Below, piece by piece: positions 18,402 through 42,591 of a stretch of 64,000 nt of DNA; positions within the stretch are counted from its first letter, which is position 1; each line of letters opens with the position of its first letter. The stretch is from Giardia intestinalis (taxonomy: Eukaryota), in the NCBI GenBank assembly GCA_000002435.2, contig CM018792.1, one strand, 5' to 3'. The notes beneath the pieces are model-generated. The model saw only the letters and a list, made by a program, of their open reading frames with translations, did not search any database and was not told the DNA's origin. Made by a program: the position numbers and the translations under genes.

Positions 18402-21400
18402 TCTGGCCCGGCCAACTTTTTGTAGGGTGTCATGCTATTGGTTACGTGGGCTCGAGTCCCCGGGCCGGCCCGGCCTGCGCAGGAGGGCGAGCGCGACCCA
18501 GCCCCGTTCCTACATGCTGCTCTGCAGTCTGCTGCCGTTACTTGTTGCTTTTACTTGCCCTGAGGCCACGGTGGTTCTCTAGAGCAATCGCTTGCATCCA
18601 TCCGTAACCCTAGGCGTTACGACTTGAAAGGCCATGTCACCGCATAGCTTTTATGAAGGACATTTACTAGCCATGGCAGATGGAGGTCGTCGCTTCTGGA
18701 AGCCCTGGTGCATGCCAGGCTTAGAAGACGTTGACTTCACTGGCTGCAGGAGCCCCCACCTACATGTGACAGCTTGAAGTAGCACCACTTCGAGGACAGG
18801 CGAGATCCACAGCTCGAGAGGACCTGGCAACAGAGAGCAGACTCAGGCATAGCCACAAACAACCCATCGATCCAGATGGATGAGAGCAGACACCCAATTG
18901 GCAAGGCGTTGGCTAGTCTATGTAGAAGCGCATCCTCCAACGCAGGCTCTGACACACAAAGTCTAAGGCAGACCATTGGTACACAGCAGACGGGCAGAAG
19001 CCTGCTTCGTAGTGTGTGGAGGCTTTGATGAGGTAATCGCAGGCTTGATGAAGGCTGGGACCTGTAGCTCTAACAGAGGGCTTCCCAGCTTTGGAATACT
19101 CACGATCACTATAAAGTTAATACAGTGAGTTGTCTGTAGTAACAAGTCTGCGGAGATAAGAGCAAGGTTCTATCAAACTAGTTAGAAATTAGTGGATCCT
19201 AGTGTGAACTCGCAGTATAGGGACTTGCAGAAGGCACCGCGTTCTATTCATCTGAGTAAGACGGCCAACTAAGTAGAGCCGTAGTGCAAAAACCACGAGG
19301 CCAAGGGCTCCTCCATAGCCTAGAAGCTAACATCACAAGAGTCACACTGGCTGCGGAGTGCTTTCCGATCCCCTGAGGCTTAGCGGCATGGCTTCGTTCC
19401 CTAGTATGGCCAGACAGGCTTGAGACATGAGATACTCTGTCTGCTGCAAAGCACACCTTCTGGCAGCGACTCTGGTCTATCGGGTAACTCTCGCATAGAG
19501 GAGGCAGATGGCTCTGAAGCGCCACCGCTCGCCTGATAACTCTAGATCGTAGCAGAGGAAGCTGTTTATGAGAGTGTACCCCTAGTGTGTAGATCCGCGT
19601 TTTCGTGCGACGTGAGAAGACGTTTCTGGGTTGATCTGTCATGCCTCCATCTGCTCTAGCAAAATGTAACCCAGCGTATGCACTAGTGATCTATGTCGCC
19701 ATGGCAGCCATAGTTAACTAGCCAACGAGACAATCGCTAGAGGAACCCTTGGACACTTATGAGCAGAGGCGCAGTCTGAGAGCAGTCCTCTGGTCACCAA
19801 ATGATGGAGGGGCAGATGTAGTGTTGCTCCATACAATCACACTCTCTCACTTTAGTAGCTATGTGGGCAGCCCCGGTCTCGTGAGGTCTGTGGATAAGCT
19901 GCTTCACCCCATAAAGCATCCAAAATTACTACAGGTGACCCCTGCAAAGTCTTACTGCGGGAGGCCATGCTCCACTAGAGACGTGGCGCTGGAAACACAT
20001 TAGCTGATGGGAGCTCCCCTCTGGCGTTCTTAGGGGCGGCGTCTGTCTACAATAGCTCTACACCCACTGCCTGTCTATGGCCCAACTGTATCTTATTAAA
20101 ATCCTGTCTCCACTGAACGGCTGATTCGAGGGTGATTGCCGTTACCAAGATGATACCTTACATTGACTTCTAAGAGCTGTCTTTGCATATGTTGCGCTGC
20201 TTAGTACTGCACTCAAACGAAGTTTGCTATCGTTTCGCAGCTATTGTGGATTGGAAGAACAGTTAGCATTCTCAGTAGTTCATGTGGTAATTGGAAGCCA
20301 GGGAAGTCTAAGTTGAGTGAGAAGGCTTGAGGAGGGAGTAGCAGCCCTTATACTCCTCTGCTGGATGATGCAGAGAACTGGCTCGTTCCTTAGCGTCGAT
20401 AGTTCTTCAGAATGCACGTTTCTTTGTTTAAGACCTGCATGCTTCGGATTGTCCTCTCTTGCCAGCAAAGCAGTCACTTTCCTGTGTGTCTCCTTCAGGC
20501 ACATGCCCATCTATGGTGGTGCTTCCTGTCTCCTCTCTGGAGAGGCATAACCGTCCCAATCCAGACACCTTGCTCTCAGCACACACCTCGTATCCAGCAG
20601 AGGCCAGGTGCTCGTCGACCATATCCCGTGAGCATCAGCGCTGTGCCACTATGTTACTTCCTGTCCCTCTTGAGAGGCGTATTCTGACCATCCCAGTGTC
20701 TCTATGATAGGGGAGCTGTGGATCTGGAGGTGATTGTTGCTTTCTGGCCCTCTCTGCTGTCCAGTAGACTGCAAAGGCGCCCTTCGGGAGTCGGTCCCCC
20801 AACCCTCTGTTCCCTCGGGGAAGTGGTCCTTGGATAGCGCCACTTGGATGATTCTCGAAGCCTCACTGCACGGGTGCTGCTTCTAAGAACTCCTGGAGCC
20901 TCCCTACAGAGTCGCCCAATGGCGCAAGTCTTACCCATTGTCAGCGGAGGTCTCGGCTCCCAAGGCGCAGCTCGGGGACAATACGTTTGGCCCACGTCAG
21001 CGCCACTTCCTGGCAAGGGCATGCGGAAGATCTACTTCCTCTTGTAGATCCATCATTGGTATCGAGAGCACTGCGCCTGCTATCCCCGTTGGAAGTGTCG
21101 GTAGACGGTGCCCCGTATCTGTCCCATTGAAGAGTTGGAGGTCTGCTAAGGACAGCGAAGAGGATCCCATCAGGGCTGTGATCATATACCCGTCATTATG
21201 GCAACCATAGTGTAGATAAGACAACTGTCTGGGCCCTGCAACTCCCGGGGTAGAACGCCAGGGGCGTAGCTGATTCAAGCTAGTGAGAGCTACCCTTGTC
21301 ATAGCAGGCTTAGAAAGTAGGGAGCGAGTGACGTACCTGGTGTCCATCCACGCACGCATGCAGCCTGGAAGCTGTGCTCAGAGCACCGAGGCCTGCAGGG

Positions 21401-24400
21401 GTGTGGCATCCGAACAGGCCCGACAGTTATGACTGCTTCTGAGAACAGCCAGCATGACTGGATGAGGACATAAGAACTTACGGAGACCCTCACAGTCTTG
21501 ATGTCTGGGAGAACGCGGGGGCTGATCACTCTGAAATTGTCCATCTCATGAGCTGGTTTCCGATAGCAGGCATAACAAGGAAGTGACCCCTAATTATACA
21601 CAATCTCATGCCAGCCCATCGCAGCCTAGAGCATCCTTGTCTGGCCTGCCAGTCCATCCATGACGTCAGTAGATGTGTCAGCATTCCATATCATCGGCCA
21701 CTTTGCTGCTGCACAGTCAGAGTACTGCCCGTGGCATTGCTTGCTGATGCTCTGCATAGGGCCCTGTTCCCGTGGCAGTGACAGGTGAGCCTCTCTGCAG
21801 ATGCAGATCTAATGATATGGTTCCTCTTGGACCTTCCACCTCTGCTTCTGTCTAGTATCTCACACAATATGAAGTGGCCAGTGGCTGTTATTGGATCCTT
21901 CAACATAGTTATTACACATGTATGTGCCCATCAAGACTACCATATAGGGTCACACAAGCCGAGAGCTCTGTCAGGCAGTTATTGGACTCGATGTCAAGAT
22001 GGCAGGAGGACAACACTCCCAGTGGTTGCTGAAGTATGAAGCGTTATATAGATCGTATAGCACACCAGCGGCAGTACGACGGTGGAGGGCATGCCTGGAG
22101 GTAGGTGGCACCTACAGCAAGCTGTATACTATCGTTGTCAGTACAATGGGCATAGTGGATACTGGACCCACGCTTTGGTAGCCTCGATTAGAGCAATTGC
22201 ACAGCGAAGGAGCAGGGCGTAGGGGCATGGAAACCAACCGGTCGAGCAACGTGTACATGTACGGGCACGGTTATAAGTCTCGCCCACACTAGTGGGTGGT
22301 GCTCTGCCTCGATGTGGACTCAGCGGGCTGGCTCTCATATCTATGACAGGGAGCAGGGCACCGTGCTGATCATGCGGTGAGAGGCCTTCATGCGGGCCTT
22401 TAACTAGCCTAGGCAGCGCTTAGAAGCGGCCAGCCCTCTCGTACCACGTCTCCTCTCCAAATAGGACTGAAGGCGCCCAAGGTGCCCTTCCAGAGTCTTG
22501 GTATCATGGAGCCCGTGCTAGGTAGGAAAGTTCTATATTACATGGCATGTGAGCTGCTAGGATGTATAAACACTTGCGTGGTTGTAGCGACACGTCCCCA
22601 CCAGCAAGTGTCAGAGTACATCGGTGGACAGGTGCATATTAAGTCAGGCACTCTGTGTGCGATCATGCATCACAGCTCTCGTAACGGGCTACGGGCGACC
22701 TGAGGACTAGTACTCTATGGCAACGCAATGTGAGGCGGTGAGCCTAAGGCAATCGCCGGATCGATGGCTTCAACGCGGCATCCAACAAGGTGCAGCAGGG
22801 CATCGAGCCAGCTGAGCATTGAACCAGGCCCTGGATAGGAGCTAAGAGCTCCTGTGCATGGCTGGGCTGCTCTCTAGATGGGAAAGGATGCACGTCGAGC
22901 TGGTCAGGTGCGATGCTGTAAGGTATCCACAGCTGTATCGATGCATCTGGTAAGTCCACACTGGACTCCGGGAAGCACGCTGCCGGACAAGCCGAGGAGG
23001 CTCGAGGGATGATGGCGCCGTCTTGTTATCGCTATGCAGTGCTCCGTGGACATGTATACAAACCAGCATCTCCTGGTAGCCGAGGAGGGGGCAGAGCTAG
23101 GAGACGGCGAGTGTCCCATTATGAACGACTCCAGGCGCTACCCGATCACTCCTTGGAAGGGCATATGCCTCGGCTAGGTTGCATCACATCCAGAGTAGAA
23201 GAGGAAGCTGTACTGTCCTATTCGTTTCTCAGGACAATGTGCGAATAGAAAGCGGCCCAGCGACTGACACTCTGCACCGTCCTCCTCATCCGCGGCCTGA
23301 GCAGCCAGATGCCAGGCTCGATATGTAGGACGGAAGCTGCGAAGAATAAACTCATCACGGGGCCGATTGTCTGACATCAAAAAATCCAAAGGGACGGTAG
23401 CGCCCACTGTCTCCTGGGAGAGCACATCATGCACAGTACCAGCCGTGCCAGCCTTGGCTTCTTAGGGGAGTAACCTGGGGACGTCCTGTACTAGCCTCGA
23501 CCTGTGAGGCGTTACGACCTGTGAATAGCACAAAAGAAGGCAACTGGATGTACAGACAGTGCATTGTGTTCGTGGAAGTATATCGCAACTTCTAGGTGTA
23601 TACAGCGGCACTAAGCCGGGCATCTCAACTGGCCTGCATTGGCGACCTGCTTGCCATCGTGTTTGCTGTGATGAGAGGCTGTGTCCGTCCAACAGATTGA
23701 ACAGGTATTGCACTTGCTTCTCTGGTGATGCATGCATGGTCATATGTAGCTCTGGTAGGTAGCGTGGATACTATGATAGCTAAGCTGTCTGCCATCAGTA
23801 GAGAATAGCAGCTGATCGCGCCAGAGACTCTTCCAGGTAAGCCTTCGGTCTTCGTGCCTGCTTCCCCACTAACTATAGTAATAACTGTATATCCAGAACA
23901 ATGCCATGAAACGCTCCACTGCCTTTCAGAGTGAGACATGGACCTGCGTATAGGGCTAGAAATAGAACTCTGTACACCAACTGTTATGCGCCTGGCGTGA
24001 TGTCAGGCTTAGACCGCGGCACGATCTCTGCGTGCCTATGTGCTCGCGTGCATGCTCACTGCTATGTTGGACAGTGCAGCAAGGAGGTTGGCCTCTGAGT
24101 GCACCCACTCTACAGTGACTAGTCCTTGGTTGCACGTCTCAACGGAGGACGGTGCTACTTGGATGTGCAAAAGACTATCTGTGCACGGTGGCTCCTGGAG
24201 AGCTGGTTCGCACAAAAAAGGTAGAGGCGACCAACAGACCAGGGAGGTAAGATCAGCGCTAGAGAGTCTAGTTATAAATCTGGATTGCAACGAGGACACT
24301 TGTAATGCCTTTCTGGCCTCCGAACGTAGAAAGACTGCAAGGCCTATAAATAGATCGGAGGCTACTTTTTGATTTTGTGCATTTGTAGCGGCGTAATATT

Positions 24401-27180
24401 TATTGGGATCCAGCCTCGTCTGAAGCTGGGGAAATTCACTTTCTCTCCATATACAGGCGAGGATCTATTGTAGAGGCATACTGTGCAGGCCGGTACCAGT
24501 CGGCGTGGTTGCTGTCCACAAATGTCTCACTTACGTTCTCCCACAACAGATGAATCGCCAAAGTGCCTCTTGGATTGCGTGATGTCCTACAGTGCATCTC
24601 TGCCTTCGACCAAAGGTTGCTACACACACTGCGTAGTTTGGATTGCTCATCATCCAGGGTGATCTGATCAGCTCTCGTCCTCTGCGTGTCTATCTTGTGT
24701 GGCCACTGCTGATGGTCTTTCCAGATCAGCGGGTGCCTCTATCGGTCCCACAGAGACACGCATCATGTAGGTGACTATTGCAGACCAGAGTCCTATCTAC
24801 CAAGGAAAAGGGTCAATCTGTTTACCGCGTAGGCATTCATTGTGTGCCCTATATAGTCCAGCAGGTCTTGTGCTCTTTAACATCTTCTCAGAGCCCTGTC
24901 TGGAGCCCGCGTGCATATCGTTACTACCAAACACTTAGCAGCTTCGACTGACCACCTAGGACGTCAAATCCCTTGCGCTGCACAGTGGGTATGCTCAGCG
25001 TGAGAGATACATAGTCAGCATCAGCCTTCTCAGCTCATCGTTTGGGTAATACTACTGTTGTTTTTCATCCAGTTAGCTGGCGCGAGGACCCAGCTCATGG
25101 CCAGCAAACCGAGAAAGGCCATTCCGGGAGGTCTTCAAGCGCGCTAGTACCTCGTTAGTGGGTAGCTAACAATGACCTTGGCGCATATCTCTGCCAAGAC
25201 ACGGCCTCTTTGAGCAGAGCATAAAAGTGGACCCTGTCATCCTGCGGCCCTGCTGATTTTTCGGACAGCAGGGATCGGAGCAGCTCAGATTAGCATTAGT
25301 CACCTCTGGGTCTCCATCTGTCTTCGTTGCCTGAGATGTGCTTGATCCTGTAGACTGAGAAGGGCGCTATACTGTACTCGTGTCTGCATGCCTCAGCCAG
25401 GCAGGGCTACCCTCTTGGAGACTACGCTGAGGTACCACACATCCCGAGGAACCTGTATGGAGTACCACAGCCCAAGGGCACCTTTGTCTGTCGAACGCAA
25501 GTTGTAGTTATGGCTTCATAAGTGCAGCCTTTCTTAAAATAACTGATCAACTACAGAATTCGTCTACTCACCCAGAGCCACCTGATGGAGGATGATATCA
25601 GTCTCGTCAGTAGTCTATAACGTACACCAGTCGAATCTCACAGATGAACAAGGGCTACCCAGCCCGCAGCACTAGACATTAGCAGATATCCTTCACGACA
25701 AGGGAGATGAGCGACTTGTAGACCACGGTAGTCGCCTGCCCATTGAAAATTTTTCAGTCACTGACCTAGGCCAGCTTATTACAAGACTCTTGGCGAGTTG
25801 TATCAAAAATGCATGCTTATGGGACTCCCAGTTCAAGGTGTATGCTGTCGTACCCTACTATTTTTCACACCAGCCTGTAGACATCGGTTCTTTTGGCCTC
25901 TAGTGGAGCCAAGGAAATCGCAGGATATGACGCCCTCAGTAGGGCTTTATCTGACTCTTATAGCTATATGACAGGAGGATGCCGGCCTTCTATGCATTAT
26001 GTAACGCGTGCTAAGCAACACCAGTACAACCCCTACAGTGTGGCATGATTCGCGAGTCAAAAGGTAGGACGCTTGGGCTGATTGGTATGTCTCCTCGGGA
26101 CCAACTACAGCTCGGACCAAAGGTCATGAGCGAATGCTATTCGATTCTCTTATCAGCAGATGGGGGTCAACTGCTCTAACACCCACAGGAGGCCACAAAA
26201 GGTACTGGACCAGGCATCCGGCCAATTGCTGGCAAATCAACACAACCTCCTTGGATCTCCATTCTTTCCTCACAGGCATCCACATGTAGGAAGCTCTGGG
26301 GGCCTAGAGCCCTACACTAACAGGCTCAAGATATTGCACTCCTAGGTGCTTCCATTAGTGGTGGTAGCGACAGCACTAGGATGATCCAGAGGGGAGGATA
26401 AGAGTCCTGATCCATCAGTTCAGGGGTGGCACAGTTTGGGCAGGGCTTCCTCCTTGTCTAAATTTGGGAGTGCTGGCCTCGCCCTCTGACCATCTGACAC
26501 CTTATCATGCGATGGGGAACCTTAATAGTATCCACTACAAAAAGGCAGAAATAGCGTCATGCATACTCAACAATCCATAGCGTCTCATAGGCTAATCTAC
26601 ACTGATTCACACTTCCACGAACCCTAGCGATCACTGTAGCCTTTTCTCGGGATCTCGCACCGGACTGTCCTTGAGTGCAGTTCCCTCACGATAGCCAGGA
26701 GTCGCAGGCATAATCCAAAGGAGTGAAGATGCCACAGAGGCGGAGAGGAGGTCATCGGCGCACGGGGGTCCGCAAGGGCCTGGCCCGCGCAGGGGAGGCA
26801 CAGGGGGCTGACTCATCAGGGACGCAGATACGCCAGGAGAGGAGCCAGCAATGAACCCACGGCACAGTGAGGGCATCCGAGCCGTCCTTTGATTGGCCTC
26901 AAAGTAGGGAGGCGGCGAGCGTGTAGAGAGGTCTCACCACCTATTTTTGGATTTTCTGTTTCCCTGCGTGTTGTGCAGGGGGCATAGGGTTCAGACCCAG
27001 AGAGCTCGCAGGGGGCTGTATGCAATAGATGTGCTTAGTATTCGATGAGCTTCTATGTCCTAAGCAGAGGTATCGTAGGAGACGAATCTCTTTGGAGTAA
27101 TTAGCACAGTACATAGTAAGTCAGGTCTTTAGTCTTAAGTATCTTATTCTTGCTCACGCGGTAAGCTGAGAAGGACCTCA

Positions 27181-29064: not shown

Positions 29065-29078
29065 ATGTGTACTTAGAT

Positions 29079-29085
29079 AGTAAAC
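29079..29085 (+). promoter_or_regulatory. Polyadenylation signal AGTAAAC for VSP copy A (mirror copy at 31802-31808 on the minus strand for copy B)
   Basis: tagatAGTAAACgcg immediately 3' of the VSP stop (29062-29064). Confidence 0.6.
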
Positions 29086-31274: not shown

Positions 31275-34200
31275 ATCCCAGTCCACCGGACCCAGAGGCA
31301 CATACAAGCACCCCCACCTCAGCCCCCACCAGTCCCACCGCCCCAGCAACCCCGCCTCCCCACCAGCTGGCCCACTGGGACCTACGTGACCGCGACTGTA
31401 GAGCGCTGCCCGAGCCACAGCCGGACACCGAGGGGCGGCCAGTGGAGAGCCCGGTAGCAGCCCCCGACAGACGGGGCATCTAAAAAAGACAGCGACCCGG
31501 GCTTCACCCGCTATGAAGAGAGACCAAGGAGAGGCGCCACTGATAGAGCAGAGGGTCCACGAGAAGACCTGAACCCCTAAAGGACCGACGTGGATACCCA
31601 AACCGAGCACATCCCTGCGAAGCGACCGATGAATATACCGGGTCCTGGATGCACTAGTAGAGGGAAGCCCCTAGCATGCTGTCTACGATCAGGCTTCGTC
31701 TCTGGATTGGCCAGGAATTAAGCGAAAGTTTACTCGTGAGACTTCTGGACGCACTGCAGGTGGACCTATCAGCATATCTACACAAGCTACGTAAGTAACG
31801 CGTTTACTATCTAAGTACACATCTACGCCTTCCCCCTACAGATGAACCACCAGCAGAGGAACCCTATGAGCCCACCCACAACGACGATGACAGCAACAGA
31901 GATGCCTGCAATGGCGCCTGTGCTAAGGCCGCTCTTGTTTGTACTACCACCGGTGCTGTTATCGTTACCGCCATCGCTAGTGCCATCCTTCTTTACATAG
32001 CAGGTGACAGGGCCACTATTACCAGCTGGCGGGTTACAGCTAACGCAATTAGTAACGCCTTGGATATTACCGCTACTCTCAGTACATTTTATGCACAAGT
32101 TTTTAGTAGAATCAAGATAGTATCCAGCAAGACAAGTCTGACATGTGTACGTCTGCCCTGCTGCCGTACACGTGGCGCAACCTGCTGGGCATGAAGGACA
32201 GGCCCCGGTATCGATGTTGGAGGGTAGGTTATTGGCACATGTCTTGCACTTGCCGTCGTTCCCTGCAGCATCCTTACATATCTGCATCCCAGGCTGCCTG
32301 GTGGTTTCGTAGCAGCCGCCCTCGAAAAGGAAATAGTTAGTAGCGCATTTCTTACAAATGCCGTTTTCTATTTGTGTACATGATGCGGCTGCTCTAACAC
32401 TAGCAGTGCAGTTACCATTCAGCGGTGCTTGCTTGGCGTCGCTGCATTTAGAGCAGTACTTAGCTTCTCCGATAGTTGCGCCGCATTCTGCACAGCCATT
32501 TGTGTTTGTTGTGCACTCGTCTACACAGGTGCTACCACTGTCCGGAGTGCTTTCAACGGTGTATTTAAGCACCTTCTTTGCAGGACAGCCGGTGCACTGA
32601 TATGGATCTTCACCGTTACACGTTTTACAGACAGAGTTGCACGCCCTGCAAGTACCATCATCTCCGTCAAAGTATCCCTCAAGCTTTTCGCACTTATCTA
32701 CGCACTCCTTTGTCGGGGTGAGCTTCCTAGTATTGTCGCACTCTGCACACGTGCCATCGTCATTACACTTCTTGCAATCTTTTACAGTGCATGCAATGCA
32801 CTTTGTCCCGGCAACATTGGGTTTGTTGGTATCTGTTGCACAAGCAGAGCATGTAATGAGAATTGGGCCTTCGGAATTCTCCTTTGGAGTGCATGTTTTG
32901 CAGTCTGCTATTCCACCACTTTTATCATCACTACAAGATAAGCATTTGTTGCCATTATTGGGATCATCTTTTGGAAAATGGGTACTTTGTTCTTTGCAGG
33001 TCTGTTCATTGACACATGTGCCCGTTCCATCGCCACTATCTTTAAAATATTTATTGGCAGCGGTTGCTTTGCACTTCGTACATTTATCTGCTCCTGCATC
33101 ACACTTAGCGCAATTATTGTTGTCAGCACAAGCTGTGCATGTTCCCTCAGATGCGGCAAAGAATCCTTCGTCACAAGCTGTGCACACTGCAGGCTTAGCA
33201 GTAGACTCTGCTGCTTCAGGAGCAGTGCATACTGTACAATGCTGAACTCCTTTATACTTTTTGCCATTGGTCAGTGTTATCTCAGTGACATCACCACACA
33301 AGATAACAGACTGGTCTGTCTTCTGTGCCCCCGGTGGAATGAAGTACCCCACTGCGGCCGCTGAGCACACTCCCTCCGCGGCATCGGTGCATAACTTCTG
33401 CCCGGTCGCATCGGCGGTGCTATAGCAACCACCCTTATAGAGGAAGTGAACCCCGTCGCATTGTCCACATACCTTGTCTTCTGCTCCTAAATCAGCGCCT
33501 CCATTCTTTTTGCAACCAGCAGTTGTAACGGCGTCATTATCTTTCGGCATACATACTCCGTTAACGGGGACATTTCCTTGGTCCTTACATTCTGTGCATA
33601 TTTCTGTTTCGCCAACCATTTCACATCTTTCATTTGCACAATTTTGTGCTTGCTTGCATGCTGCCGCGAGAGCACTCAGCACAAAATAGAAAGCTACCAA
33701 CAACATTGAGGTCCTTCTCAGCTTACCGCGTGAGCAAGAATAAGATACTTAAGACTAAAGACCTGACTTACTATGTACTGTGCTAATTACTCCAAAGAGA
33801 TTCGTCTCCTACGATACCTCTGCTTAGGACATAGAAGCTCATCGAATACTAAGCACATCTATTGCATACAGCCCCCTGCGAGCTCTCTGGGTCTGAACCC
33901 TATGCCCCCTGCACAACACGCAGGGAAACAGAAAATCCAAAAATAGGTGGTGAGACCTCTCTACACGCTCGCCGCCTCCCTACTTTGAGGCCAATCAAAG
34001 GACGGCTCGGATGCCCTCACTGTGCCGTGGGTTCATTGCTGGCTCCTCTCCTGGCGTATCTGCGTCCCTGATGAGTCAGCCCCCTGTGCCTCCCCTGCGC
34101 GGGCCAGGCCCTTGCGGACCCCCGTGCGCCGATGACCTCCTCTCCGCCTCTGTGGCATCTTCACTCCTTTGGATTATGCCTGCGACTCCTGGCTATCGTG

Positions 34201-37200
34201 AGGGAACTGCACTCAAGGACAGTCCGGTGCGAGATCCCGAGAAAAGGCTACAGTGATCGCTAGGGTTCGTGGAAGTGTGAATCAGTGTAGATTAGCCTAT
34301 GAGACGCTATGGATTGTTGAGTATGCATGACGCTATTTCTGCCTTTTTGTAGTGGATACTATTAAGGTTCCCCATCGCATGATAAGGTGTCAGATGGTCA
34401 GAGGGCGAGGCCAGCACTCCCAAATTTAGACAAGGAGGAAGCCCTGCCCAAACTGTGCCACCCCTGAACTGATGGATCAGGACTCTTATCCTCCCCTCTG
34501 GATCATCCTAGTGCTGTCGCTACCACCACTAATGGAAGCACCTAGGAGTGCAATATCTTGAGCCTGTTAGTGTAGGGCTCTAGGCCCCCAGAGCTTCCTA
34601 CATGTGGATGCCTGTGAGGAAAGAATGGAGATCCAAGGAGGTTGTGTTGATTTGCCAGCAATTGGCCGGATGCCTGGTCCAGTACCTTTTGTGGCCTCCT
34701 GTGGGTGTTAGAGCAGTTGACCCCCATCTGCTGATAAGAGAATCGAATAGCATTCGCTCATGACCTTTGGTCCGAGCTGTAGTTGGTCCCGAGGAGACAT
34801 ACCAATCAGCCCAAGCGTCCTACCTTTTGACTCGCGAATCATGCCACACTGTAGGGGTTGTACTGGTGTTGCTTAGCACGCGTTACATAATGCATAGAAG
34901 GCCGGCATCCTCCTGTCATATAGCTATAAGAGTCAGATAAAGCCCTACTGAGGGCGTCATATCCTGCGATTTCCTTGGCTCCACTAGAGGCCAAAAGAAC
35001 CGATGTCTACAGGCTGGTGTGAAAAATAGTAGGGTACGACAGCATACACCTTGAACTGGGAGTCCCATAAGCATGCATTTTTGATACAACTCGCCAAGAG
35101 TCTTGTAATAAGCTGGCCTAGGTCAGTGACTGAAAAATTTTCAATGGGCAGGCGACTACCGTGGTCTACAAGTCGCTCATCTCCCTTGTCGTGAAGGATA
35201 TCTGCTAATGTCTAGTGCTGCGGGCTGGGTAGCCCTTGTTCATCTGTGAGATTCGACTGGTGTACGTTATAGACTACTGACGAGACTGATATCATCCTCC
35301 ATCAGGTGGCTCTGGGTGAGTAGACGAATTCTGTAGTTGATCAGTTATTTTAAGAAAGGCTGCACTTATGAAGCCATAACTACAACTTGCGTTCGACAGA
35401 CAAAGGTGCCCTTGGGCTGTGGTACTCCATACAGGTTCCTCGGGATGTGTGGTACCTCAGCGTAGTCTCCAAGAGGGTAGCCCTGCCTGGCTGAGGCATG
35501 CAGACACGAGTACAGTATAGCGCCCTTCTCAGTCTACAGGATCAAGCACATCTCAGGCAACGAAGACAGATGGAGACCCAGAGGTGACTAATGCTAATCT
35601 GAGCTGCTCCGATCCCTGCTGTCCGAAAAATCAGCAGGGCCGCAGGATGACAGGGTCCACTTTTATGCTCTGCTCAAAGAGGCCGTGTCTTGGCAGAGAT
35701 ATGCGCCAAGGTCATTGTTAGCTACCCACTAACGAGGTACTAGCGCGCTTGAAGACCTCCCGGAATGGCCTTTCTCGGTTTGCTGGCCATGAGCTGGGTC
35801 CTCGCGCCAGCTAACTGGATGAAAAACAACAGTAGTATTACCCAAACGATGAGCTGAGAAGGCTGATGCTGACTATGTATCTCTCACGCTGAGCATACCC
35901 ACTGTGCAGCGCAAGGGATTTGACGTCCTAGGTGGTCAGTCGAAGCTGCTAAGTGTTTGGTAGTAACGATATGCACGCGGGCTCCAGACAGGGCTCTGAG
36001 AAGATGTTAAAGAGCACAAGACCTGCTGGACTATATAGGGCACACAATGAATGCCTACGCGGTAAACAGATTGACCCTTTTCCTTGGTAGATAGGACTCT
36101 GGTCTGCAATAGTCACCTACATGATGCGTGTCTCTGTGGGACCGATAGAGGCACCCGCTGATCTGGAAAGACCATCAGCAGTGGCCACACAAGATAGACA
36201 CGCAGAGGACGAGAGCTGATCAGATCACCCTGGATGATGAGCAATCCAAACTACGCAGTGTGTGTAGCAACCTTTGGTCGAAGGCAGAGATGCACTGTAG
36301 GACATCACGCAATCCAAGAGGCACTTTGGCGATTCATCTGTTGTGGGAGAACGTAAGTGAGACATTTGTGGACAGCAACCACGCCGACTGGTACCGGCCT
36401 GCACAGTATGCCTCTACAATAGATCCTCGCCTGTATATGGAGAGAAAGTGAATTTCCCCAGCTTCAGACGAGGCTGGATCCCAATAAATATTACGCCGCT
36501 ACAAATGCACAAAATCAAAAAGTAGCCTCCGATCTATTTATAGGCCTTGCAGTCTTTCTACGTTCGGAGGCCAGAAAGGCATTACAAGTGTCCTCGTTGC
36601 AATCCAGATTTATAACTAGACTCTCTAGCGCTGATCTTACCTCCCTGGTCTGTTGGTCGCCTCTACCTTTTTTGTGCGAACCAGCTCTCCAGGAGCCACC
36701 GTGCACAGATAGTCTTTTGCACATCCAAGTAGCACCGTCCTCCGTTGAGACGTGCAACCAAGGACTAGTCACTGTAGAGTGGGTGCACTCAGAGGCCAAC
36801 CTCCTTGCTGCACTGTCCAACATAGCAGTGAGCATGCACGCGAGCACATAGGCACGCAGAGATCGTGCCGCGGTCTAAGCCTGACATCACGCCAGGCGCA
36901 TAACAGTTGGTGTACAGAGTTCTATTTCTAGCCCTATACGCAGGTCCATGTCTCACTCTGAAAGGCAGTGGAGCGTTTCATGGCATTGTTCTGGATATAC
37001 AGTTATTACTATAGTTAGTGGGGAAGCAGGCACGAAGACCGAAGGCTTACCTGGAAGAGTCTCTGGCGCGATCAGCTGCTATTCTCTACTGATGGCAGAC
37101 AGCTTAGCTATCATAGTATCCACGCTACCTACCAGAGCTACATATGACCATGCATGCATCACCAGAGAAGCAAGTGCAATACCTGTTCAATCTGTTGGAC

Positions 37201-40200
37201 GGACACAGCCTCTCATCACAGCAAACACGATGGCAAGCAGGTCGCCAATGCAGGCCAGTTGAGATGCCCGGCTTAGTGCCGCTGTATACACCTAGAAGTT
37301 GCGATATACTTCCACGAACACAATGCACTGTCTGTACATCCAGTTGCCTTCTTTTGTGCTATTCACAGGTCGTAACGCCTCACAGGTCGAGGCTAGTACA
37401 GGACGTCCCCAGGTTACTCCCCTAAGAAGCCAAGGCTGGCACGGCTGGTACTGTGCATGATGTGCTCTCCCAGGAGACAGTGGGCGCTACCGTCCCTTTG
37501 GATTTTTTGATGTCAGACAATCGGCCCCGTGATGAGTTTATTCTTCGCAGCTTCCGTCCTACATATCGAGCCTGGCATCTGGCTGCTCAGGCCGCGGATG
37601 AGGAGGACGGTGCAGAGTGTCAGTCGCTGGGCCGCTTTCTATTCGCACATTGTCCTGAGAAACGAATAGGACAGTACAGCTTCCTCTTCTACTCTGGATG
37701 TGATGCAACCTAGCCGAGGCATATGCCCTTCCAAGGAGTGATCGGGTAGCGCCTGGAGTCGTTCATAATGGGACACTCGCCGTCTCCTAGCTCTGCCCCC
37801 TCCTCGGCTACCAGGAGATGCTGGTTTGTATACATGTCCACGGAGCACTGCATAGCGATAACAAGACGGCGCCATCATCCCTCGAGCCTCCTCGGCTTGT
37901 CCGGCAGCGTGCTTCCCGGAGTCCAGTGTGGACTTACCAGATGCATCGATACAGCTGTGGATACCTTACAGCATCGCACCTGACCAGCTCGACGTGCATC
38001 CTTTCCCATCTAGAGAGCAGCCCAGCCATGCACAGGAGCTCTTAGCTCCTATCCAGGGCCTGGTTCAATGCTCAGCTGGCTCGATGCCCTGCTGCACCTT
38101 GTTGGATGCCGCGTTGAAGCCATCGATCCGGCGATTGCCTTAGGCTCACCGCCTCACATTGCGTTGCCATAGAGTACTAGTCCTCAGGTCGCCCGTAGCC
38201 CGTTACGAGAGCTGTGATGCATGATCGCACACAGAGTGCCTGACTTAATATGCACCTGTCCACCGATGTACTCTGACACTTGCTGGTGGGGACGTGTCGC
38301 TACAACCACGCAAGTGTTTATACATCCTAGCAGCTCACATGCCATGTAATATAGAACTTTCCTACCTAGCACGGGCTCCATGATACCAAGACTCTGGAAG
38401 GGCACCTTGGGCGCCTTCAGTCCTATTTGGAGAGGAGACGTGGTACGAGAGGGCTGGCCGCTTCTAAGCGCTGCCTAGGCTAGTTAAAGGCCCGCATGAA
38501 GGCCTCTCACCGCATGATCAGCACGGTGCCCTGCTCCCTGTCATAGATATGAGAGCCAGCCCGCTGAGTCCACATCGAGGCAGAGCACCACCCACTAGTG
38601 TGGGCGAGACTTATAACCGTGCCCGTACATGTACACGTTGCTCGACCGGTTGGTTTCCATGCCCCTACGCCCTGCTCCTTCGCTGTGCAATTGCTCTAAT
38701 CGAGGCTACCAAAGCGTGGGTCCAGTATCCACTATGCCCATTGTACTGACAACGATAGTATACAGCTTGCTGTAGGTGCCACCTACCTCCAGGCATGCCC
38801 TCCACCGTCGTACTGCCGCTGGTGTGCTATACGATCTATATAACGCTTCATACTTCAGCAACCACTGGGAGTGTTGTCCTCCTGCCATCTTGACATCGAG
38901 TCCAATAACTGCCTGACAGAGCTCTCGGCTTGTGTGACCCTATATGGTAGTCTTGATGGGCACATACATGTGTAATAACTATGTTGAAGGATCCAATAAC
39001 AGCCACTGGCCACTTCATATTGTGTGAGATACTAGACAGAAGCAGAGGTGGAAGGTCCAAGAGGAACCATATCATTAGATCTGCATCTGCAGAGAGGCTC
39101 ACCTGTCACTGCCACGGGAACAGGGCCCTATGCAGAGCATCAGCAAGCAATGCCACGGGCAGTACTCTGACTGTGCAGCAGCAAAGTGGCCGATGATATG
39201 GAATGCTGACACATCTACTGACGTCATGGATGGACTGGCAGGCCAGACAAGGATGCTCTAGGCTGCGATGGGCTGGCATGAGATTGTGTATAATTAGGGG
39301 TCACTTCCTTGTTATGCCTGCTATCGGAAACCAGCTCATGAGATGGACAATTTCAGAGTGATCAGCCCCCGCGTTCTCCCAGACATCAAGACTGTGAGGG
39401 TCTCCGTAAGTTCTTATGTCCTCATCCAGTCATGCTGGCTGTTCTCAGAAGCAGTCATAACTGTCGGGCCTGTTCGGATGCCACACCCCTGCAGGCCTCG
39501 GTGCTCTGAGCACAGCTTCCAGGCTGCATGCGTGCGTGGATGGACACCAGGTACGTCACTCGCTCCCTACTTTCTAAGCCTGCTATGACAAGGGTAGCTC
39601 TCACTAGCTTGAATCAGCTACGCCCCTGGCGTTCTACCCCGGGAGTTGCAGGGCCCAGACAGTTGTCTTATCTACACTATGGTTGCCATAATGACGGGTA
39701 TATGATCACAGCCCTGATGGGATCCTCTTCGCTGTCCTTAGCAGACCTCCAACTCTTCAATGGGACAGATACGGGGCACCGTCTACCGACACTTCCAACG
39801 GGGGTAGCAGGCGCAGTGCTCTCGATACCAATGATGGATCTACAAGAGGAAGTAGATCTTCCGCATGCCCTTGCCAGGAAGTGGCGCTGACGTGGGCCAA
39901 ACGTATTGTCCCCGAGCTGCGCCTTGGGAGCCGAGACCTCCGCTGACAATGGGTAAGACTTGCGCCATTGGGCGACTCTGTAGGGAGGCTCCAGGAGTTC
40001 TTAGAAGCAGCACCCGTGCAGTGAGGCTTCGAGAATCATCCAAGTGGCGCTATCCAAGGACCACTTCCCCGAGGGAACAGAGGGTTGGGGGACCGACTCC
40101 CGAAGGGCGCCTTTGCAGTCTACTGGACAGCAGAGAGGGCCAGAAAGCAACAATCACCTCCAGATCCACAGCTCCCCTATCATAGAGACACTGGGATGGT

Positions 40201-42386
40201 CAGAATACGCCTCTCAAGAGGGACAGGAAGTAACATAGTGGCACAGCGCTGATGCTCACGGGATATGGTCGACGAGCACCTGGCCTCTGCTGGATACGAG
40301 GTGTGTGCTGAGAGCAAGGTGTCTGGATTGGGACGGTTATGCCTCTCCAGAGAGGAGACAGGAAGCACCACCATAGATGGGCATGTGCCTGAAGGAGACA
40401 CACAGGAAAGTGACTGCTTTGCTGGCAAGAGAGGACAATCCGAAGCATGCAGGTCTTAAACAAAGAAACGTGCATTCTGAAGAACTATCGACGCTAAGGA
40501 ACGAGCCAGTTCTCTGCATCATCCAGCAGAGGAGTATAAGGGCTGCTACTCCCTCCTCAAGCCTTCTCACTCAACTTAGACTTCCCTGGCTTCCAATTAC
40601 CACATGAACTACTGAGAATGCTAACTGTTCTTCCAATCCACAATAGCTGCGAAACGATAGCAAACTTCGTTTGAGTGCAGTACTAAGCAGCGCAACATAT
40701 GCAAAGACAGCTCTTAGAAGTCAATGTAAGGTATCATCTTGGTAACGGCAATCACCCTCGAATCAGCCGTTCAGTGGAGACAGGATTTTAATAAGATACA
40801 GTTGGGCCATAGACAGGCAGTGGGTGTAGAGCTATTGTAGACAGACGCCGCCCCTAAGAACGCCAGAGGGGAGCTCCCATCAGCTAATGTGTTTCCAGCG
40901 CCACGTCTCTAGTGGAGCATGGCCTCCCGCAGTAAGACTTTGCAGGGGTCACCTGTAGTAATTTTGGATGCTTTATGGGGTGAAGCAGCTTATCCACAGA
41001 CCTCACGAGACCGGGGCTGCCCACATAGCTACTAAAGTGAGAGAGTGTGATTGTATGGAGCAACACTACATCTGCCCCTCCATCATTTGGTGACCAGAGG
41101 ACTGCTCTCAGACTGCGCCTCTGCTCATAAGTGTCCAAGGGTTCCTCTAGCGATTGTCTCGTTGGCTAGTTAACTATGGCTGCCATGGCGACATAGATCA
41201 CTAGTGCATACGCTGGGTTACATTTTGCTAGAGCAGATGGAGGCATGACAGATCAACCCAGAAACGTCTTCTCACGTCGCACGAAAACGCGGATCTACAC
41301 ACTAGGGGTACACTCTCATAAACAGCTTCCTCTGCTACGATCTAGAGTTATCAGGCGAGCGGTGGCGCTTCAGAGCCATCTGCCTCCTCTATGCGAGAGT
41401 TACCCGATAGACCAGAGTCGCTGCCAGAAGGTGTGCTTTGCAGCAGACAGAGTATCTCATGTCTCAAGCCTGTCTGGCCATACTAGGGAACGAAGCCATG
41501 CCGCTAAGCCTCAGGGGATCGGAAAGCACTCCGCAGCCAGTGTGACTCTTGTGATGTTAGCTTCTAGGCTATGGAGGAGCCCTTGGCCTCGTGGTTTTTG
41601 CACTACGGCTCTACTTAGTTGGCCGTCTTACTCAGATGAATAGAACGTGGTGCCTTCTGCAAGTCCCTATACTGCGAGTTCACACTAGGATCCACTAATT
41701 TCTAACTAGTTTGATAGAACCTTGCTCTTATCTCCGCAGACTTGTTACTACAGACAACTCACTGTATTAACTTTATAGTGATCGTGAGTATTCCAAAGCT
41801 GGGAAGCCCTCTGTTAGAGCTACAGGTCCCAGCCTTCATCAAGCCTGCGATTACCTCATCAAAGCCTCCACACACTACGAAGCAGGCTTCTGCCCGTCTG
41901 CTGTGTACCAATGGTCTGCCTTAGACTTTGTGTGTCAGAGCCTGCGTTGGAGGATGCGCTTCTACATAGACTAGCCAACGCCTTGCCAATTGGGTGTCTG
42001 CTCTCATCCATCTGGATCGATGGGTTGTTTGTGGCTATGCCTGAGTCTGCTCTCTGTTGCCAGGTCCTCTCGAGCTGTGGATCTCGCCTGTCCTCGAAGT
42101 GGTGCTACTTCAAGCTGTCACATGTAGGTGGGGGCTCCTGCAGCCAGTGAAGTCAACGTCTTCTAAGCCTGGCATGCACCAGGGCTTCCAGAAGCGACGA
42201 CCTCCATCTGCCATGGCTAGTAAATGTCCTTCATAAAAGCTATGCGGTGACATGGCCTTTCAAGTCGTAACGCCTAGGGTTACGGATGGATGCAAGCGAT
42301 TGCTCTAGAGAACCACCGTGGCCTCAGGGCAAGTAAAAGCAACAAGTAACGGCAGCAGACTGCAGAGCAGCATGTAGGAACGGGGC
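31275..42386 (-). repeat. Right arm of the inverted repeat (reverse-complement copy of 18501-29615)
   Basis: Mirror image of the left arm about coordinate 30443.5. VSP copy B is at 31823..33706(-). The arm is not perfectly identical to the left arm: an A/G difference at 21083 versus 39804 changes Ile to Val in a mirrored spurious ORF, and there is a 3-bp indel near 29606 versus 31281 (GGSLG versus GGLG). Confidence 0.9.
31823..33706 (-). CDS. Variant-specific surface protein (VSP), copy B (protein identical to copy A)
   Basis: The 627-aa translation is identical to 27181..29064, including the signal peptide, CXXC/GGCY motifs, TM segment and CRGKA tail. It is oriented tail-to-tail with copy A, with 3' ends 2.76 kb apart. 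The mirror AGTAAAC signal is at 31802-31808 on the minus strand. Confidence 0.93.
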   Translation of the reverse strand: MLLVAFYFVLSALAAACKQAQNCANERCEMVGETEICTECKDQGNVPVNGVCMPKDNDAVTTAGCKKNGGADLGAEDKVCGQCDGVHFLYKGGCYSTADATGQKLCTDAAEGVCSAAAVGYFIPPGAQKTDQSVILCGDVTEITLTNGKKYKGVQHCTVCTAPEAAESTAKPAVCTACDEGFFAASEGTCTACADNNNCAKCDAGADKCTKCKATAANKYFKDSGDGTGTCVNEQTCKEQSTHFPKDDPNNGNKCLSCSDDKSGGIADCKTCTPKENSEGPILITCSACATDTNKPNVAGTKCIACTVKDCKKCNDDGTCAECDNTRKLTPTKECVDKCEKLEGYFDGDDGTCRACNSVCKTCNGEDPYQCTGCPAKKVLKYTVESTPDSGSTCVDECTTNTNGCAECGATIGEAKYCSKCSDAKQAPLNGNCTASVRAAASCTQIENGICKKCATNYFLFEGGCYETTRQPGMQICKDAAGNDGKCKTCANNLPSNIDTGACPSCPAGCATCTAAGQTYTCQTCLAGYYLDSTKNLCIKCTESSGNIQGVTNCVSCNPPAGNSGPVTCYVKKDGTSDGGNDNSTGGSTNKSGLSTGAIAGISVAVIVVVGGLIGFLCWWFICRGKA

Positions 42387-42454
42387 CGGGCAGGCCTGAG
42401 GACCGCAGGGACGGCCGCTCCTGCAGGAAGCACCAGGATGCGAGACCGGAAAAG

Positions 42455-42528: not shown

Positions 42529-42591
42529 GCGCCACCGAGGGAAACAACATAATGATTATTATATGCATTGTGCACTTTTGTTTGGCTTGAA

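What the first reader, a model, noticed from the sequence alone, without database searches (positions are those of the whole stretch)
18501..42386. A 24-kb palindrome: two ~11.1-kb near-identical inverted arms around a 1.66-kb unique spacer
I re-checked the outer junctions by reverse-complement comparison. The arms (18501-29615 and 31275-42386) are symmetric about coordinate 30443.5. The mirrored ORF set in the track, including two 100%-identical 627-aa VSPs, shows near-perfect arm identity. If transcribed, or during replication, this would form an enormous hairpin or cruciform. Palindromes of this size are rare and unstable in most genomes. In Giardia they would be directly relevant to VSP antigenic-switching biology and chromosome-end plasticity. 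Nothing else in the window (housekeeping genes on both sides) suggests a repeat-rich region, so the structure looks like a discrete insertion or duplication between the metzincin-HCMP gene and tRNA-Asn.
Basis: seen in the sequence. Interest (0 to 1): 0.88.

Follow-up and report, generated by a model that had tools for sequence, protein, structure and literature searches.

The report
Known Giardia inverted VSP gene pair
The 24-kb palindrome is real, but it is the already published tail-to-tail duplicated surface-antigen (VSP) gene pair GL50803_00103992/d103992 on Giardia WB chromosome 4, one of about 20 such pairs; the possibly new points are that its identical arms run 8.7 kb upstream through gene-free DNA and look homogenised by gene conversion.

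Summary
Observation confirmed. The arms are 18497-29604 and 31283-42390 (11,108 nt) with 3 mismatches. The unique spacer is 1,678 nt and the centre is at 30443.5. Each arm is 8.7 kb of ORF-free DNA, one identical 627-aa VSP gene and 540 nt of 3' flank. The two VSPs converge, 2,758 nt apart.

It is not new. Xu et al. 2020 (Table 2) list exactly this pair: chr 4, d103992/103992, -> <-, 627 aa, 2758 bp. Adam et al. 2010 list it as vsp20.1/20.2 (541 nt / 2759 nt). WB has 19-20 such pairs and G. muris has 7.

It is not an artefact. The Sanger-era assembly found the same inner geometry, and four short-read assemblies cross the left outer junction.

It is not an insertion. The syntenic P15 locus already has a homologous gene-free tract plus a VSP.

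A cruciform or giant hairpin is unlikely, given a 1.7-kb spacer and a poly(A) signal after each VSP.

What I add:
- the full arm length;
- a mosaic P15 palindrome (a 2.46-kb identical run between ~4% diverged patches);
- about 2.25x coverage of the AII homologue;
- decayed symmetry at the spacer ends;
- a slowly evolving non-coding spacer.

Together these favour long-term arm-to-arm gene conversion over a single recent duplication, but they do not prove it.

The parts
18497..29604 (+). Left arm of the palindrome (exact match from 18501)
   Evidence: 11,108 nt, 3 mismatches to the reverse complement of 31283-42390
31283..42390 (-). Right arm of the palindrome (mirror image of the left arm)
18497..27180 (.). 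Gene-free 'U' zone of the left arm (8,684 nt; mirror copy 33707-42390). Homologous but strongly diverged tracts lie upstream of VSPs in P15.
   Evidence: longest stop-free run 148 codons, stop density near random in all six frames, no VSP remnants; no Pfam hit at E<=0.05; no Rfam hit; collinear 60-64% matches to P15 loci L008 and L017.
23660..24386 (.). Conserved non-coding island inside the U zone (mirror copy 36501-37227)
   Evidence: 72% identical to P15 L008 6685-7411, almost no indels, surroundings ~50%; substitution phases 72/69/58 (p=0.44); stops in all frames in both genomes
27181..29064 (+). VSP gene copy 1 (627 aa, ends CRGKA, start context CAATGTT); one copy of the published pair GL50803_00103992/d103992 (which copy carries which tag was not determined)
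   Evidence: PF03302, E=1.3e-89; 100% to the WB C6 VSP P0001 on a 2,761,001-bp contig
31823..33706 (-). VSP gene copy 2, identical to copy 1, convergent with it (tail to tail)
   Evidence: no mismatch in this part of the arms; Table 2
29079..29084 (+). AGTAAA poly(A) signal 15 nt after the VSP stop (mirror copy 31803-31808 on the - strand)
   Evidence: sequence. That AGTRAAY is the Giardia poly(A) signal is my own knowledge.
29065..29604 (+). 540-nt 3' flank that belongs to the arm (mirror copy 31283-31822); 59% GC
   Evidence: Adam 2010 Table 5 gives 541 nt for vsp 20.
29526..29576 (+). G-quadruplex-prone G-run tract 28 nt from the inner arm end (mirror copy 31311-31361, C-rich on the + strand)
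   Evidence: regular-expression scan; only 3 such motifs in 64 kb; 17-nt tandem repeat 29521-29563
29605..31282 (.). Unique non-coding spacer, 1,678 nt, 61.7% GC. Its first and last ~55 nt keep degenerate inverted symmetry.
   Evidence: no codon periodicity (40/41/42), many frameshifting indels; no credible Pfam hit; 89.8% identical to AII-like contig L009, against 81.4% for the adjacent 3' flank; no other copy in the window or in any fetched locus.
13819..18396 (+). Left flank gene: 1525-aa cysteine-rich membrane protein with an HExxHxxGxxH motif; single copy, with syntenic orthologues in P15 and GS
42454..42528 (-). tRNA-Asn (GTT), 64 nt outside the right arm end
42568..58434 (+). Right flank: giant ORF (5288 codons from the first TTG), no Pfam domain

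Best explanation
This is the catalogued tail-to-tail duplicated VSP pair GL50803_00103992/00d103992 on chromosome 4 of Giardia intestinalis WB C6.

It is a genuine inverted segmental duplication at an ancestral VSP locus. Each arm holds 8.7 kb of gene-free upstream DNA, one complete VSP gene with its own initiator (CAATGTT) and poly(A) signal, and 540 nt of 3' flank. The arms meet a 1.68-kb unique, GC-rich, non-coding spacer.

Shown: the structure; the identity with the published pair; independent support for the inner geometry and for the left outer junction; and homology of the arm to the syntenic P15 region.

Inferred, formation: a replication or repair error. This could be fold-back priming or a template switch at the short imperfect inverted repeat still visible at the spacer ends. 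G-quadruplex-prone tracts and a tRNA gene lie next to the junctions.

Inferred, maintenance: the arms are kept near-identical (2-3 differences in 11.1 kb) by arm-to-arm gene conversion, as in sex-chromosome palindromes, rather than simply being very young.

The consequence is two interchangeable copies of one antigen gene. No special hairpin or cruciform function is needed or indicated.
For: Identity and reality:
- the VSP is 100% identical to a WB C6 VSP on a 2,761,001-bp contig.
- Xu 2020 Table 2 lists chr 4, d103992/103992, -> <-, 627 aa, 2758 bp, which is exactly the window's 29065-31822 gap.
- Adam 2010 lists vsp20.1/20.2 = 103992, flagged 'TTIP', chr 4, with 3' divergence 541 nt and 2759 nt between the ORFs, from the independent Sanger assembly.
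- four Logan short-read contigs cross the left outer junction at 100% identity and carry the left-arm allele at 18500.

Local duplication at an old VSP site:
- in P15 the orthologous flank gene is followed by a gene-free tract collinear with window 20883-23157, then by VSP sequence.

Gene conversion:
- the related P15 palindrome (L008) has mosaic arms, with a 2,459-nt run of zero differences between ~4% diverged patches that are mostly transitions (P~1e-15 against a uniform model).
- the AII-like homologue differs from WB by 10-19% across upstream region, VSP, 3' flank and spacer, while the WB arms differ by 0.02-0.03%.
- in the one SPAdes assembly ERZ28528424 the AII homologue contig has coverage 51.9, against 23.1 for a 37-kb single-copy contig (2.25x). 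That suggests two collapsed near-identical copies there too.
- ~55 nt of decayed symmetry adjoins the perfect arms.
- 19-20 identical pairs in WB and 7 in G. muris.
- gene-conversion tracts in assemblage AI are enriched for VSPs.

Formation: degenerate inverted repeat at the spacer ends, G4 motifs within 140 nt of three junctions; tRNA-Asn 64 nt from the right end.
Against: - Gene conversion is not demonstrated for this locus. Two or three differences in 11 kb are equally what a very recent duplication would give.
- Illumina polishing of a long-read assembly can erase true arm differences.
- Orthology between the WB unit and the AII (P0002) or P15 (L008) units is not proven. P15's L008 has different outer flanks, and U-type sequence is multi-copy in P15.
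- The P15 mosaic could partly reflect collapse in a 454-era assembly.
- The coverage ratio rests on two contigs from one metagenome.
- The degenerate symmetry at the spacer ends fits either decay of an old palindrome or a pre-existing inverted repeat that seeded a recent fold-back.
- The right outer junction, and the full 11-kb span of each arm, rest on the long-read reference alone. My exact-ORF look-ups found no independent contigs.
Confidence: 0.85

Rival explanations
1. A single very recent inverted duplication, private to the AI/WB lineage, whose arms are identical only because there has been no time to diverge. No ongoing homogenisation is involved. Adam et al. 2010 favoured this view.
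For: -: only 2-3 differences in 11.1 kb.
- sharp outer junctions with no residual symmetry.
- Adam 2010 suggests the duplications are relatively recent.
- the imperfect inverted repeat at the spacer ends could be the pre-existing seed of a recent fold-back.
Against: - About 20 pairs in WB and 7 in G. muris are all nucleotide-identical, and few are intermediate.
- The P15 palindrome arms are mosaic.
- The AII homologue of the same VSP, 3' flank and spacer unit is 10-19% diverged yet appears at ~2.25x coverage as one collapsed contig.
Confidence: 0.3
2. Assembly artefact: a fold-back chimeric long read, or a collapsed or mis-joined repeat, created a palindrome that does not exist in the genome.
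For: - Long-read library chimeras can be palindromic (general knowledge).
- The preprint notes that the duplicated pairs were once questioned as artefacts of the older assembly.
- I could not verify the right outer junction independently.
Against: - The independent Sanger assembly reports the same pair with the same 541/2759 geometry.
- According to Adam 2010, the analogous VSP1267 pair had already been described as a tail-to-tail inverted pair before genome sequencing.
- Short-read contigs cross the left junction.
- The palindrome is internal, with two different unique flanks and a 1.68-kb unique spacer. Adapter-less chimeras do not produce that.
- P15, G. muris and other WB loci show the same architecture.
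Confidence: 0.03
3. A functional hairpin or double-stranded-RNA generator. Convergent read-through transcription across the spacer would make VSP double-stranded RNA that feeds the RNAi pathway proposed to silence VSPs, or the DNA would extrude a cruciform.
For: - Convergent identical genes 2.76 kb apart.
- RNAi involvement in VSP switching is cited.
- The spacer is non-coding yet about twice as conserved as the adjacent 3' flank.
Against: - Each VSP has a canonical AGTAAA signal 15 nt after its stop.
- Seven WB pairs are head to head, an arrangement that cannot give read-through double-stranded RNA of the coding region.
- No RNA family or unusual fold at the junction.
- A 1.68-kb spacer disfavours cruciform extrusion (established knowledge).
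- No transcript data were available to me.
Confidence: 0.07
4. Insertion of a mobile element or of a captured palindromic fragment: a transposon-like unit with long inverted arms, dropped between the cysteine-rich gene and tRNA-Asn.
For: - The preprint reports transposable-element relics near duplicated VSPs by CENSOR.
- tRNA genes are frequent integration landmarks (general knowledge).
- The related unit in P15 (L008) sits between different flank genes.
Against: - No Pfam remnant of reverse transcriptase, integrase or transposase at E<=0.05 in the 8.7-kb zone or in the spacer.
- No target-site duplication is visible at the outer junctions.
- The syntenic P15 locus already contains homologous U-type sequence plus a VSP after the same flank gene.
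Confidence: 0.05

Closest known systems
Giardia duplicated inverted VSP pairs (VSP1267 pair as cited in Adam et al. 2010; Adam et al. 2010; Xu et al. 2020; Rodriguez-Walker et al. 2022 preprint; G. muris pairs in Xu et al. 2020, Microb Genom)
   Same: This locus is one of them. [quoted passage not shown]
   Different: Nothing differs in kind. In the passages I read, the publications give the inter-ORF distance but not the outer limit of the tail-to-tail duplications. Adam 2010 left the 5' divergence blank because the contigs ended. Here the arms are shown to run 8.7 kb upstream, for 11.1 kb in total.
Primate Y- and X-chromosome ampliconic palindromes (own knowledge: Rozen et al. 2003; Jackson et al. 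2021)
   Same: Large inverted arms at >99.9% identity around a unique spacer, with a multi-copy gene family inside the arms. Arm identity far exceeds between-lineage identity, which in primates is explained by arm-to-arm gene conversion.
   Different: The scale differs (11 kb here, against 9 kb to 1.45 Mb). The organism is a tetraploid protist with little or no sex. Conservation of an orthologous palindrome across lineages is only suggested here, not shown. In this case the spacer is more conserved than the inner arm flank.
Fold-back or short-inverted-repeat-primed palindrome formation (own knowledge: Tetrahymena rDNA palindrome; yeast and mammalian inverted duplications; ODIRA)
   Same: A short imperfect inverted repeat sits exactly at the arm/spacer boundaries. 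The spacer would correspond to the loop between the two short repeats.
   Different: Those mechanisms typically give terminal, dicentric or triplicated products. Here both original flanks are retained, so a second template switch or junction is needed. Mechanism inferred only.
Plastid-genome large inverted repeats (own knowledge)
   Same: Arms of ~10-25 kb are kept identical by copy correction, and a unique region lies between them that flips by recombination.
   Different: Those are in a circular organellar genome with rRNA operons in the arms. Flip-flop of this spacer has not been tested.

Membership tests
Giardia duplicated inverted VSP pair, tail-to-tail class | Two VSP ORFs with identical sequence, each a bona fide VSP (CXXC-rich, transmembrane segment, CRGKA tail) | tested here: met
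   identical 627-aa ORFs, PF03302 E=1.3e-89, ending ...CRGKA.
Giardia duplicated inverted VSP pair, tail-to-tail class | Convergent (-> <-) orientation with 2-4 kb between the ORFs | tested here: met
   + strand copy ends at 29064, - strand copy ends at 31823; 2,758 nt between them. Published range 2,393-3,222 nt.
Giardia duplicated inverted VSP pair, tail-to-tail class | Flanks identical up to an abrupt divergence point a few hundred nt 3' of the stop (318-559 nt in Adam 2010) | tested here: met
   identity drops from 100% to ~25% at 29604, which is 540 nt after the stop.
Giardia duplicated inverted VSP pair, tail-to-tail class | Listed as such in the published catalogues of the WB genome | tested here: met
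   (Xu 2020 Table 2: chr 4, d103992/103992, 627 aa, 2758 bp). (Adam 2010 supplement: vsp20.1/20.2, 103992, TTIPa/b, chr 4). (100% protein match to WB C6).
Gene-conversion-maintained palindrome (sex-chromosome type) | Arms of several kb at >99.9% identity around a unique spacer, with genes in the arms | tested here: met
   11,108-nt arms at 99.97% identity, 1,678-nt spacer, a VSP in each arm.
Gene-conversion-maintained palindrome (sex-chromosome type) | The orthologous palindrome is present in diverged lineages, with arms more alike within than between genomes | tested here: inconclusive
   A P15 relative (L008) is palindromic, with arms at 98.8% identity against ~60-72% to WB, but its flanks differ. 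The AII homologue shows 2.25x coverage and 10-19% divergence from WB, but its second copy was not seen directly.
Gene-conversion-maintained palindrome (sex-chromosome type) | Patchy (tract-like) distribution of arm-to-arm differences | tested here: inconclusive
   WB: only 3 differences, all in the outer 23% of the arm (P~0.05 for the two internal ones). P15: clearly mosaic, but assembly collapse cannot be excluded.
Cruciform-forming or hairpin-forming perfect palindrome | No spacer, or a very short one, between the arms | tested here: not met
   1,678-nt unique spacer; no significant self-symmetry inside it.
Transposable element with long terminal inverted repeats | Transposase, reverse transcriptase or integrase coding remnant, and a target-site duplication | tested here: not met
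   no Pfam hit; no direct repeat flanking the outer junctions.
Fold-back or chimeric assembly artefact | Structure absent from independent data, with junctions unsupported | tested here: not met
   Inner geometry reproduced by the Sanger assembly. Left outer junction reproduced by 4 short-read assemblies. The right outer junction was not testable with these tools.

The most novel reading that the evidence does not exclude
The tail-to-tail VSP palindromes of Giardia may not be young duplicates. They may be an old, genus-wide architecture whose arms, including kilobases of gene-free upstream DNA with a conserved non-coding island, are continually homogenised by arm-to-arm gene conversion. Their non-coding spacer would be under constraint. 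That would make them a Y-chromosome-like copy-correction device for antigen genes in an organism with little or no sex. This particular palindrome would then predate the AI/AII split.
Probability: 0.4. Interest if true: 0.55.

Novelty: already known. Interest (0 to 1): 0.22.

Why it matters
As found, it matters little, because the pair is annotated and tabulated. It does matter practically. Reads from the two VSP copies, and from 17 kb of surrounding DNA, cannot be mapped uniquely, and the locus is a likely source of inversion calls.

If the gene-conversion reading holds, these palindromes would explain how Giardia keeps about 30% of its intact VSP genes as perfect twins. They would also provide a tractable model of palindrome maintenance outside sex chromosomes. 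The conserved spacer and the upstream island would become candidate cis elements for the still unexplained one-VSP-at-a-time expression.

Tried and rejected
- Exact-protein look-ups of the VSP itself, of another WB paired VSP, and of ORFs straddling the inner-left and outer-right junctions were all 'not on record'. I therefore could not fetch other WB pairs or verify those junctions in short-read data.
- Six-frame Pfam scan of the 8.7-kb gene-free zone and of the spacer ORFs: nothing. The single sub-threshold 'Myogenic Basic' hit (18.7 bits against a cutoff of 25) is dismissed as chance.
- Rfam at E<=0.1 over 17000-44000: only tRNA-Asn.
- tblastn of 120 VSPs against the window: no VSP relics outside the two genes.
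- Spacer against its own reverse complement: not significant overall.
- DNA folding of the inner junction: z=0.46.
- Residual symmetry at the outer junctions: none.
- Metagenome scan with a 35-nt conserved spacer motif: no hit.
- Sensitive search for other copies of the spacer or 3' flank in all held sequence: only the AII-like orthologue.
- P0122 turned out to be a paralogue at another locus, not the AII version of this site.
- Consensus folding of the conserved island from two sequences is not informative enough to claim an RNA.

Full report
**1.

The only long inverted repeat in the window has arms 18497-29604 and 31283-42390 (11,108 nt), separated by 1,678 nt. A base-by-base check gives a symmetry centre at 30443.5. 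There are three mismatches, at left-arm positions 18500, 19239 and 21083. Identity drops abruptly to ~25% outside 18497 and inside 29604, and the window has no N runs. Its inner limits are about 11 nt too generous. No other direct repeat of 80 nt or more, or inverted repeat of 200 nt or more, exists in the 64 kb.

**2. Anatomy**

Each arm has three parts.
- An 8,684-nt zone (18497-27180) with no ORF longer than 148 codons and near-random stop density in all six frames. It has no VSP remnants, no Pfam domain remnant and no Rfam match.
- One 627-aa ORF (27181-29064 +; mirror copy 31823-33706 -) that matches Pfam VSP PF03302 at E=1.3e-89. It ends in CRGKA, has the start context CAATGTT, and has an AGTAAA signal 15 nt after the stop.
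- 540 nt of GC-rich 3' flank containing a 51-nt G-run tract at 29526-29576.

The two VSPs converge, 2,758 nt apart.

The spacer (29605-31282) is 61.7% GC. For comparison, the flanks are 46-49%, the upstream zone 52% and the VSP 49%. The spacer has no credible protein-family match and no significant global self-symmetry.

The flanks are ordinary single-copy genes.
- Left: topoisomerase, TTL, proteasome alpha, an LRR protein and a 1525-aa cysteine-rich protein.
- Right: tRNA-Asn 64 nt from the arm end, a giant ORF without domains and a proteasome subunit.

**3. It is already known**

The VSP is 100% identical to a VSP of G. intestinalis WB C6 on a 2,761,001-bp contig.

Xu et al. 2020 (PMC7000408), Table 2, list 'Chr 4, d103992 / 103992, -> <-, 627 aa, 2758 bp'. 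That is this locus to the base.

Adam et al. 2010 (PMC2996952) list it as vsp 20.1/20.2 = GL50803_103992, 'TTIPa/TTIPb', chromosome 4, 627 aa, initiator CAATGTT. Their figures are a 3' divergence of 541 nt and 2,759 nt between the ORFs.

Such pairs are common.
- Adam 2010 report 14 identical inverted pairs.
- Xu 2020 report 19: 12 tail to tail and 7 head to head.
- The 2022 preprint 10.1101/2022.03.07.483299 reports 20: 13 and 7.
- G. muris has 7: 5 tail to tail and 2 head to head (PMC7641422).

The gene-poor, GC-rich surroundings of VSPs and the duplicated neighbouring 'hypothetical' genes are also described.

What I did not find in the passages I read is the outer extent of the tail-to-tail duplications. 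Adam 2010 left the 5' divergence blank because contigs ended there. Xu 2020 only state that duplications of up to 20 kb exist.

**4. It is not an assembly artefact**

- The Sanger-era assembly gives the same inner geometry.
- Four independent short-read (Logan) contigs, L001, L003, L005 and L006, run at 100% identity from the left flank gene across 18497 and up to 295 nt into the arm. They carry the left-arm allele at 18500.
- The structure is internal, with two different unique flanks and a unique spacer.
- I could not cross-check the right outer junction, or the inner junctions, in short-read data, because the exact-ORF look-ups failed. Those, and the full 11-kb length of each arm, rest on the long-read reference.

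**5. It is not a discrete insertion**

In P15 (assemblage E) the syntenic contig (L017) has the same gene order: the LRR gene, then the 1525-aa orthologue. These are followed by ~4 kb without genes, collinear with window 20883-23157 at 60-64% identity, and then by VSP sequence. A gene-free tract plus a VSP at this chromosomal site therefore predates the A/E split. In assemblage B the contigs stop 1.3-3.1 kb past the orthologous flank gene, with no detectable similarity to the arm.

**6. Evidence bearing on recent duplication versus homogenisation**

(a) P15 carries the closest relative of this VSP outside assemblage A (P0003, 67% aa) on contig L008. There it sits between inverted arms of at least 6.4 kb made of the homologous upstream zone. 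Those arms differ at 79 sites (75 substitutions, mostly transitions) in a strongly mosaic pattern. A 2,459-nt run has no differences and lies between patches at ~4% (P~1e-15 under uniformity). This is what gene-conversion tracts on an older duplication would produce. Partial assembly collapse is the caveat.

(b) Metagenome contigs L009-L011 carry a homologous unit of upstream region, VSP, 3' flank and spacer, collinear with the WB left arm and spacer. Identity to WB by segment is 85.4% upstream, 89.5% in the VSP, 81.4% in the 3' flank and 89.8% in the spacer. The Giardia in those samples is AII-like. It encodes a protein identical to DH's DHA2_153245, and its flank is 97.6% identical to WB.

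(c) In the single SPAdes assembly ERZ28528424, this unit has k-mer coverage 51.9, against 23.1 for a 37-kb single-copy contig. The 2.25x ratio suggests two collapsed near-identical copies in AII as well.

(d) Identity of AII-like contig L012 to WB drops from 97.3% in the flank gene to 74.7% in the first 87 nt of the arm. All five AII-like contigs end at window positions 18408-18583, near the outer boundary.

(e) The first and last ~55 nt of the spacer retain degenerate inverted symmetry (score 15 against a null of 7.7 +/- 1.5, 0 of 2000 shuffles). The outer junctions show none.

(f) Gene-conversion tracts in AI genomes are enriched for VSPs (PMC12669663).

Together these favour an old architecture with concerted evolution of the arms. 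Each item has an alternative reading: uncertain orthology, a single coverage comparison, or a seed inverted repeat rather than decay. I put the homogenisation reading at roughly 0.55-0.6 and a plain recent duplication at ~0.3.

**7. The spacer**

The spacer is non-coding. WB/AII substitutions fall 40/41/42 across the three phases, against 57/49/106 in the VSP, and it has 20 indels that are mostly not multiples of three. Yet it diverges only about half as fast as the adjacent 3' flank (10% against 19%). Its longest perfectly conserved run (46 nt, 29635-29680) starts within the zone of degenerate symmetry. It has no other copy in anything I could search. Its role is unknown. It could be a constrained cis element, or it could simply have a lower local mutation rate.

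**8. Formation (inference only)**

An imperfect short inverted repeat lies exactly at the arm/spacer boundaries. G-quadruplex-prone tracts lie within 140 nt of three of the four junctions, and these are the only three such motifs in 64 kb. A tRNA gene lies 64 nt from the fourth junction. These features fit a replication-stall and template-switch (fold-back) origin with the spacer as the loop. A second switch is needed to regain the right flank. There is no target-site duplication and no transposase-type remnant, which argues against transposition.

**9.

A 1.68-kb unique spacer makes cruciform extrusion implausible (established knowledge, not tested here). Each VSP has its own poly(A) signal. 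Seven WB pairs are head to head, which cannot yield read-through double-stranded RNA of the coding region. The junction DNA folds no better than shuffled sequence. Inverted arms of this size do predict flip-flop inversion of the spacer. Inversions are the commonest structural variant in WB nanopore data, and structural variants are enriched for VSPs (PMC7048089), but nothing there is specific to this locus.

**10. Verdict**

The feature is real, correctly described, and already published and annotated as GL50803_00103992/d103992. Novelty: already known. Interest is low (0.22).

The incremental points are the 11.1-kb arm length, the homologous palindrome in P15 with mosaic arms, the probable two-copy state in AII, the decayed inner edge, the slowly evolving spacer and a ~730-nt conserved non-coding island. 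They make a testable case that these palindromes are maintained by gene conversion. Existing long-read data could settle that quickly.

Noticed in passing
window 23660-24386 (mirror copy 36501-37227); L008 6685-7411 and 14389-15115: A ~730-nt block inside the gene-free upstream zone, ~2.8 kb upstream of the VSP start, is 72% identical between WB and P15 with almost no indels, while the surroundings are ~50%. It has no codon periodicity (72/69/58) and stops in all frames in both genomes, so it is a conserved non-coding element of unknown role.
   Followed up: partly
L008 (P15 contig ACVC01000111.1) 3461-18347: In P15 a single VSP cassette (176 nt of 5' sequence, a 638-aa ORF and 56 nt of 3' sequence) lies between inverted arms of at least 6.4 kb made of upstream-type DNA. 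That layout would let recombination between the arms flip the gene. One deletion from a WB-like tail-to-tail palindrome could produce it.
   Followed up: partly
window 18334-18362, 29526-29576, 31311-31361: The only three G-quadruplex-type motifs in the 64 kb all lie within 140 nt of palindrome junctions (outer-left, inner-left, inner-right). The two inner ones are mirror copies of each other.
   Followed up: no
window 29605-31282 against L009 3205-4425: The non-coding spacer is as conserved between AI and AII-like Giardia (89.8%) as the VSP coding sequence (89.5%), and more conserved than the adjacent 3' flank (81.4%) or the upstream region (85.4%).
   Followed up: partly
window 18397-18583 against L012 14579-14794: Identity between WB and an AII-like genome falls from 97.3% in the flank gene to 74.7% within the first 87 nt of the arm. 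The outer palindrome boundary therefore coincides with a sharp change in divergence level.
   Followed up: no
window 18405-18791; loci L001-L007: Short-read contigs from WB-type samples stop either at 18405-18410, a few nt after the flank gene's stop, or at 18690/18791, which is 194-295 nt inside the arm. They do not stop at the arm boundary itself, and I did not find the reason for these break points.
   Followed up: no
window 13819-18396 (+); L022 10001-14629: The 1525-aa left-flank protein has an HEVGHNGGGAH (HExxHxxGxxH, metzincin-type) motif and a cysteine-rich C-terminal part with a hydrophobic tail, but no Pfam hit. It has syntenic orthologues in P15 and GS. A 58%-identical paralogue in AII genomes sits at another locus that is also followed by EGF-like and VSP genes.
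   Followed up: partly
window 42568-58434 (+): A giant ORF of about 5,288 codons starts 40 nt after tRNA-Asn and has no Pfam domain at E<=0.001 anywhere along it.
   Followed up: partly
L017 (P15 contig ACVC01000189.1) ~1211-1295: About 270-350 nt upstream of the syntenic P15 VSP there is an 85-nt relic of a VSP 3' end in the opposite orientation (83.5% to window 29005-29089). This suggests past head-to-tail or inverted VSP rearrangements at this site.
   Followed up: no
window 19239 and 21083: The only two internal arm-to-arm differences both lie in the outer 23% of the arm, and the inner 8.5 kb is perfectly identical (P~0.05 by chance). This may hint that homogenisation is more efficient near the centre.
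   Followed up: no
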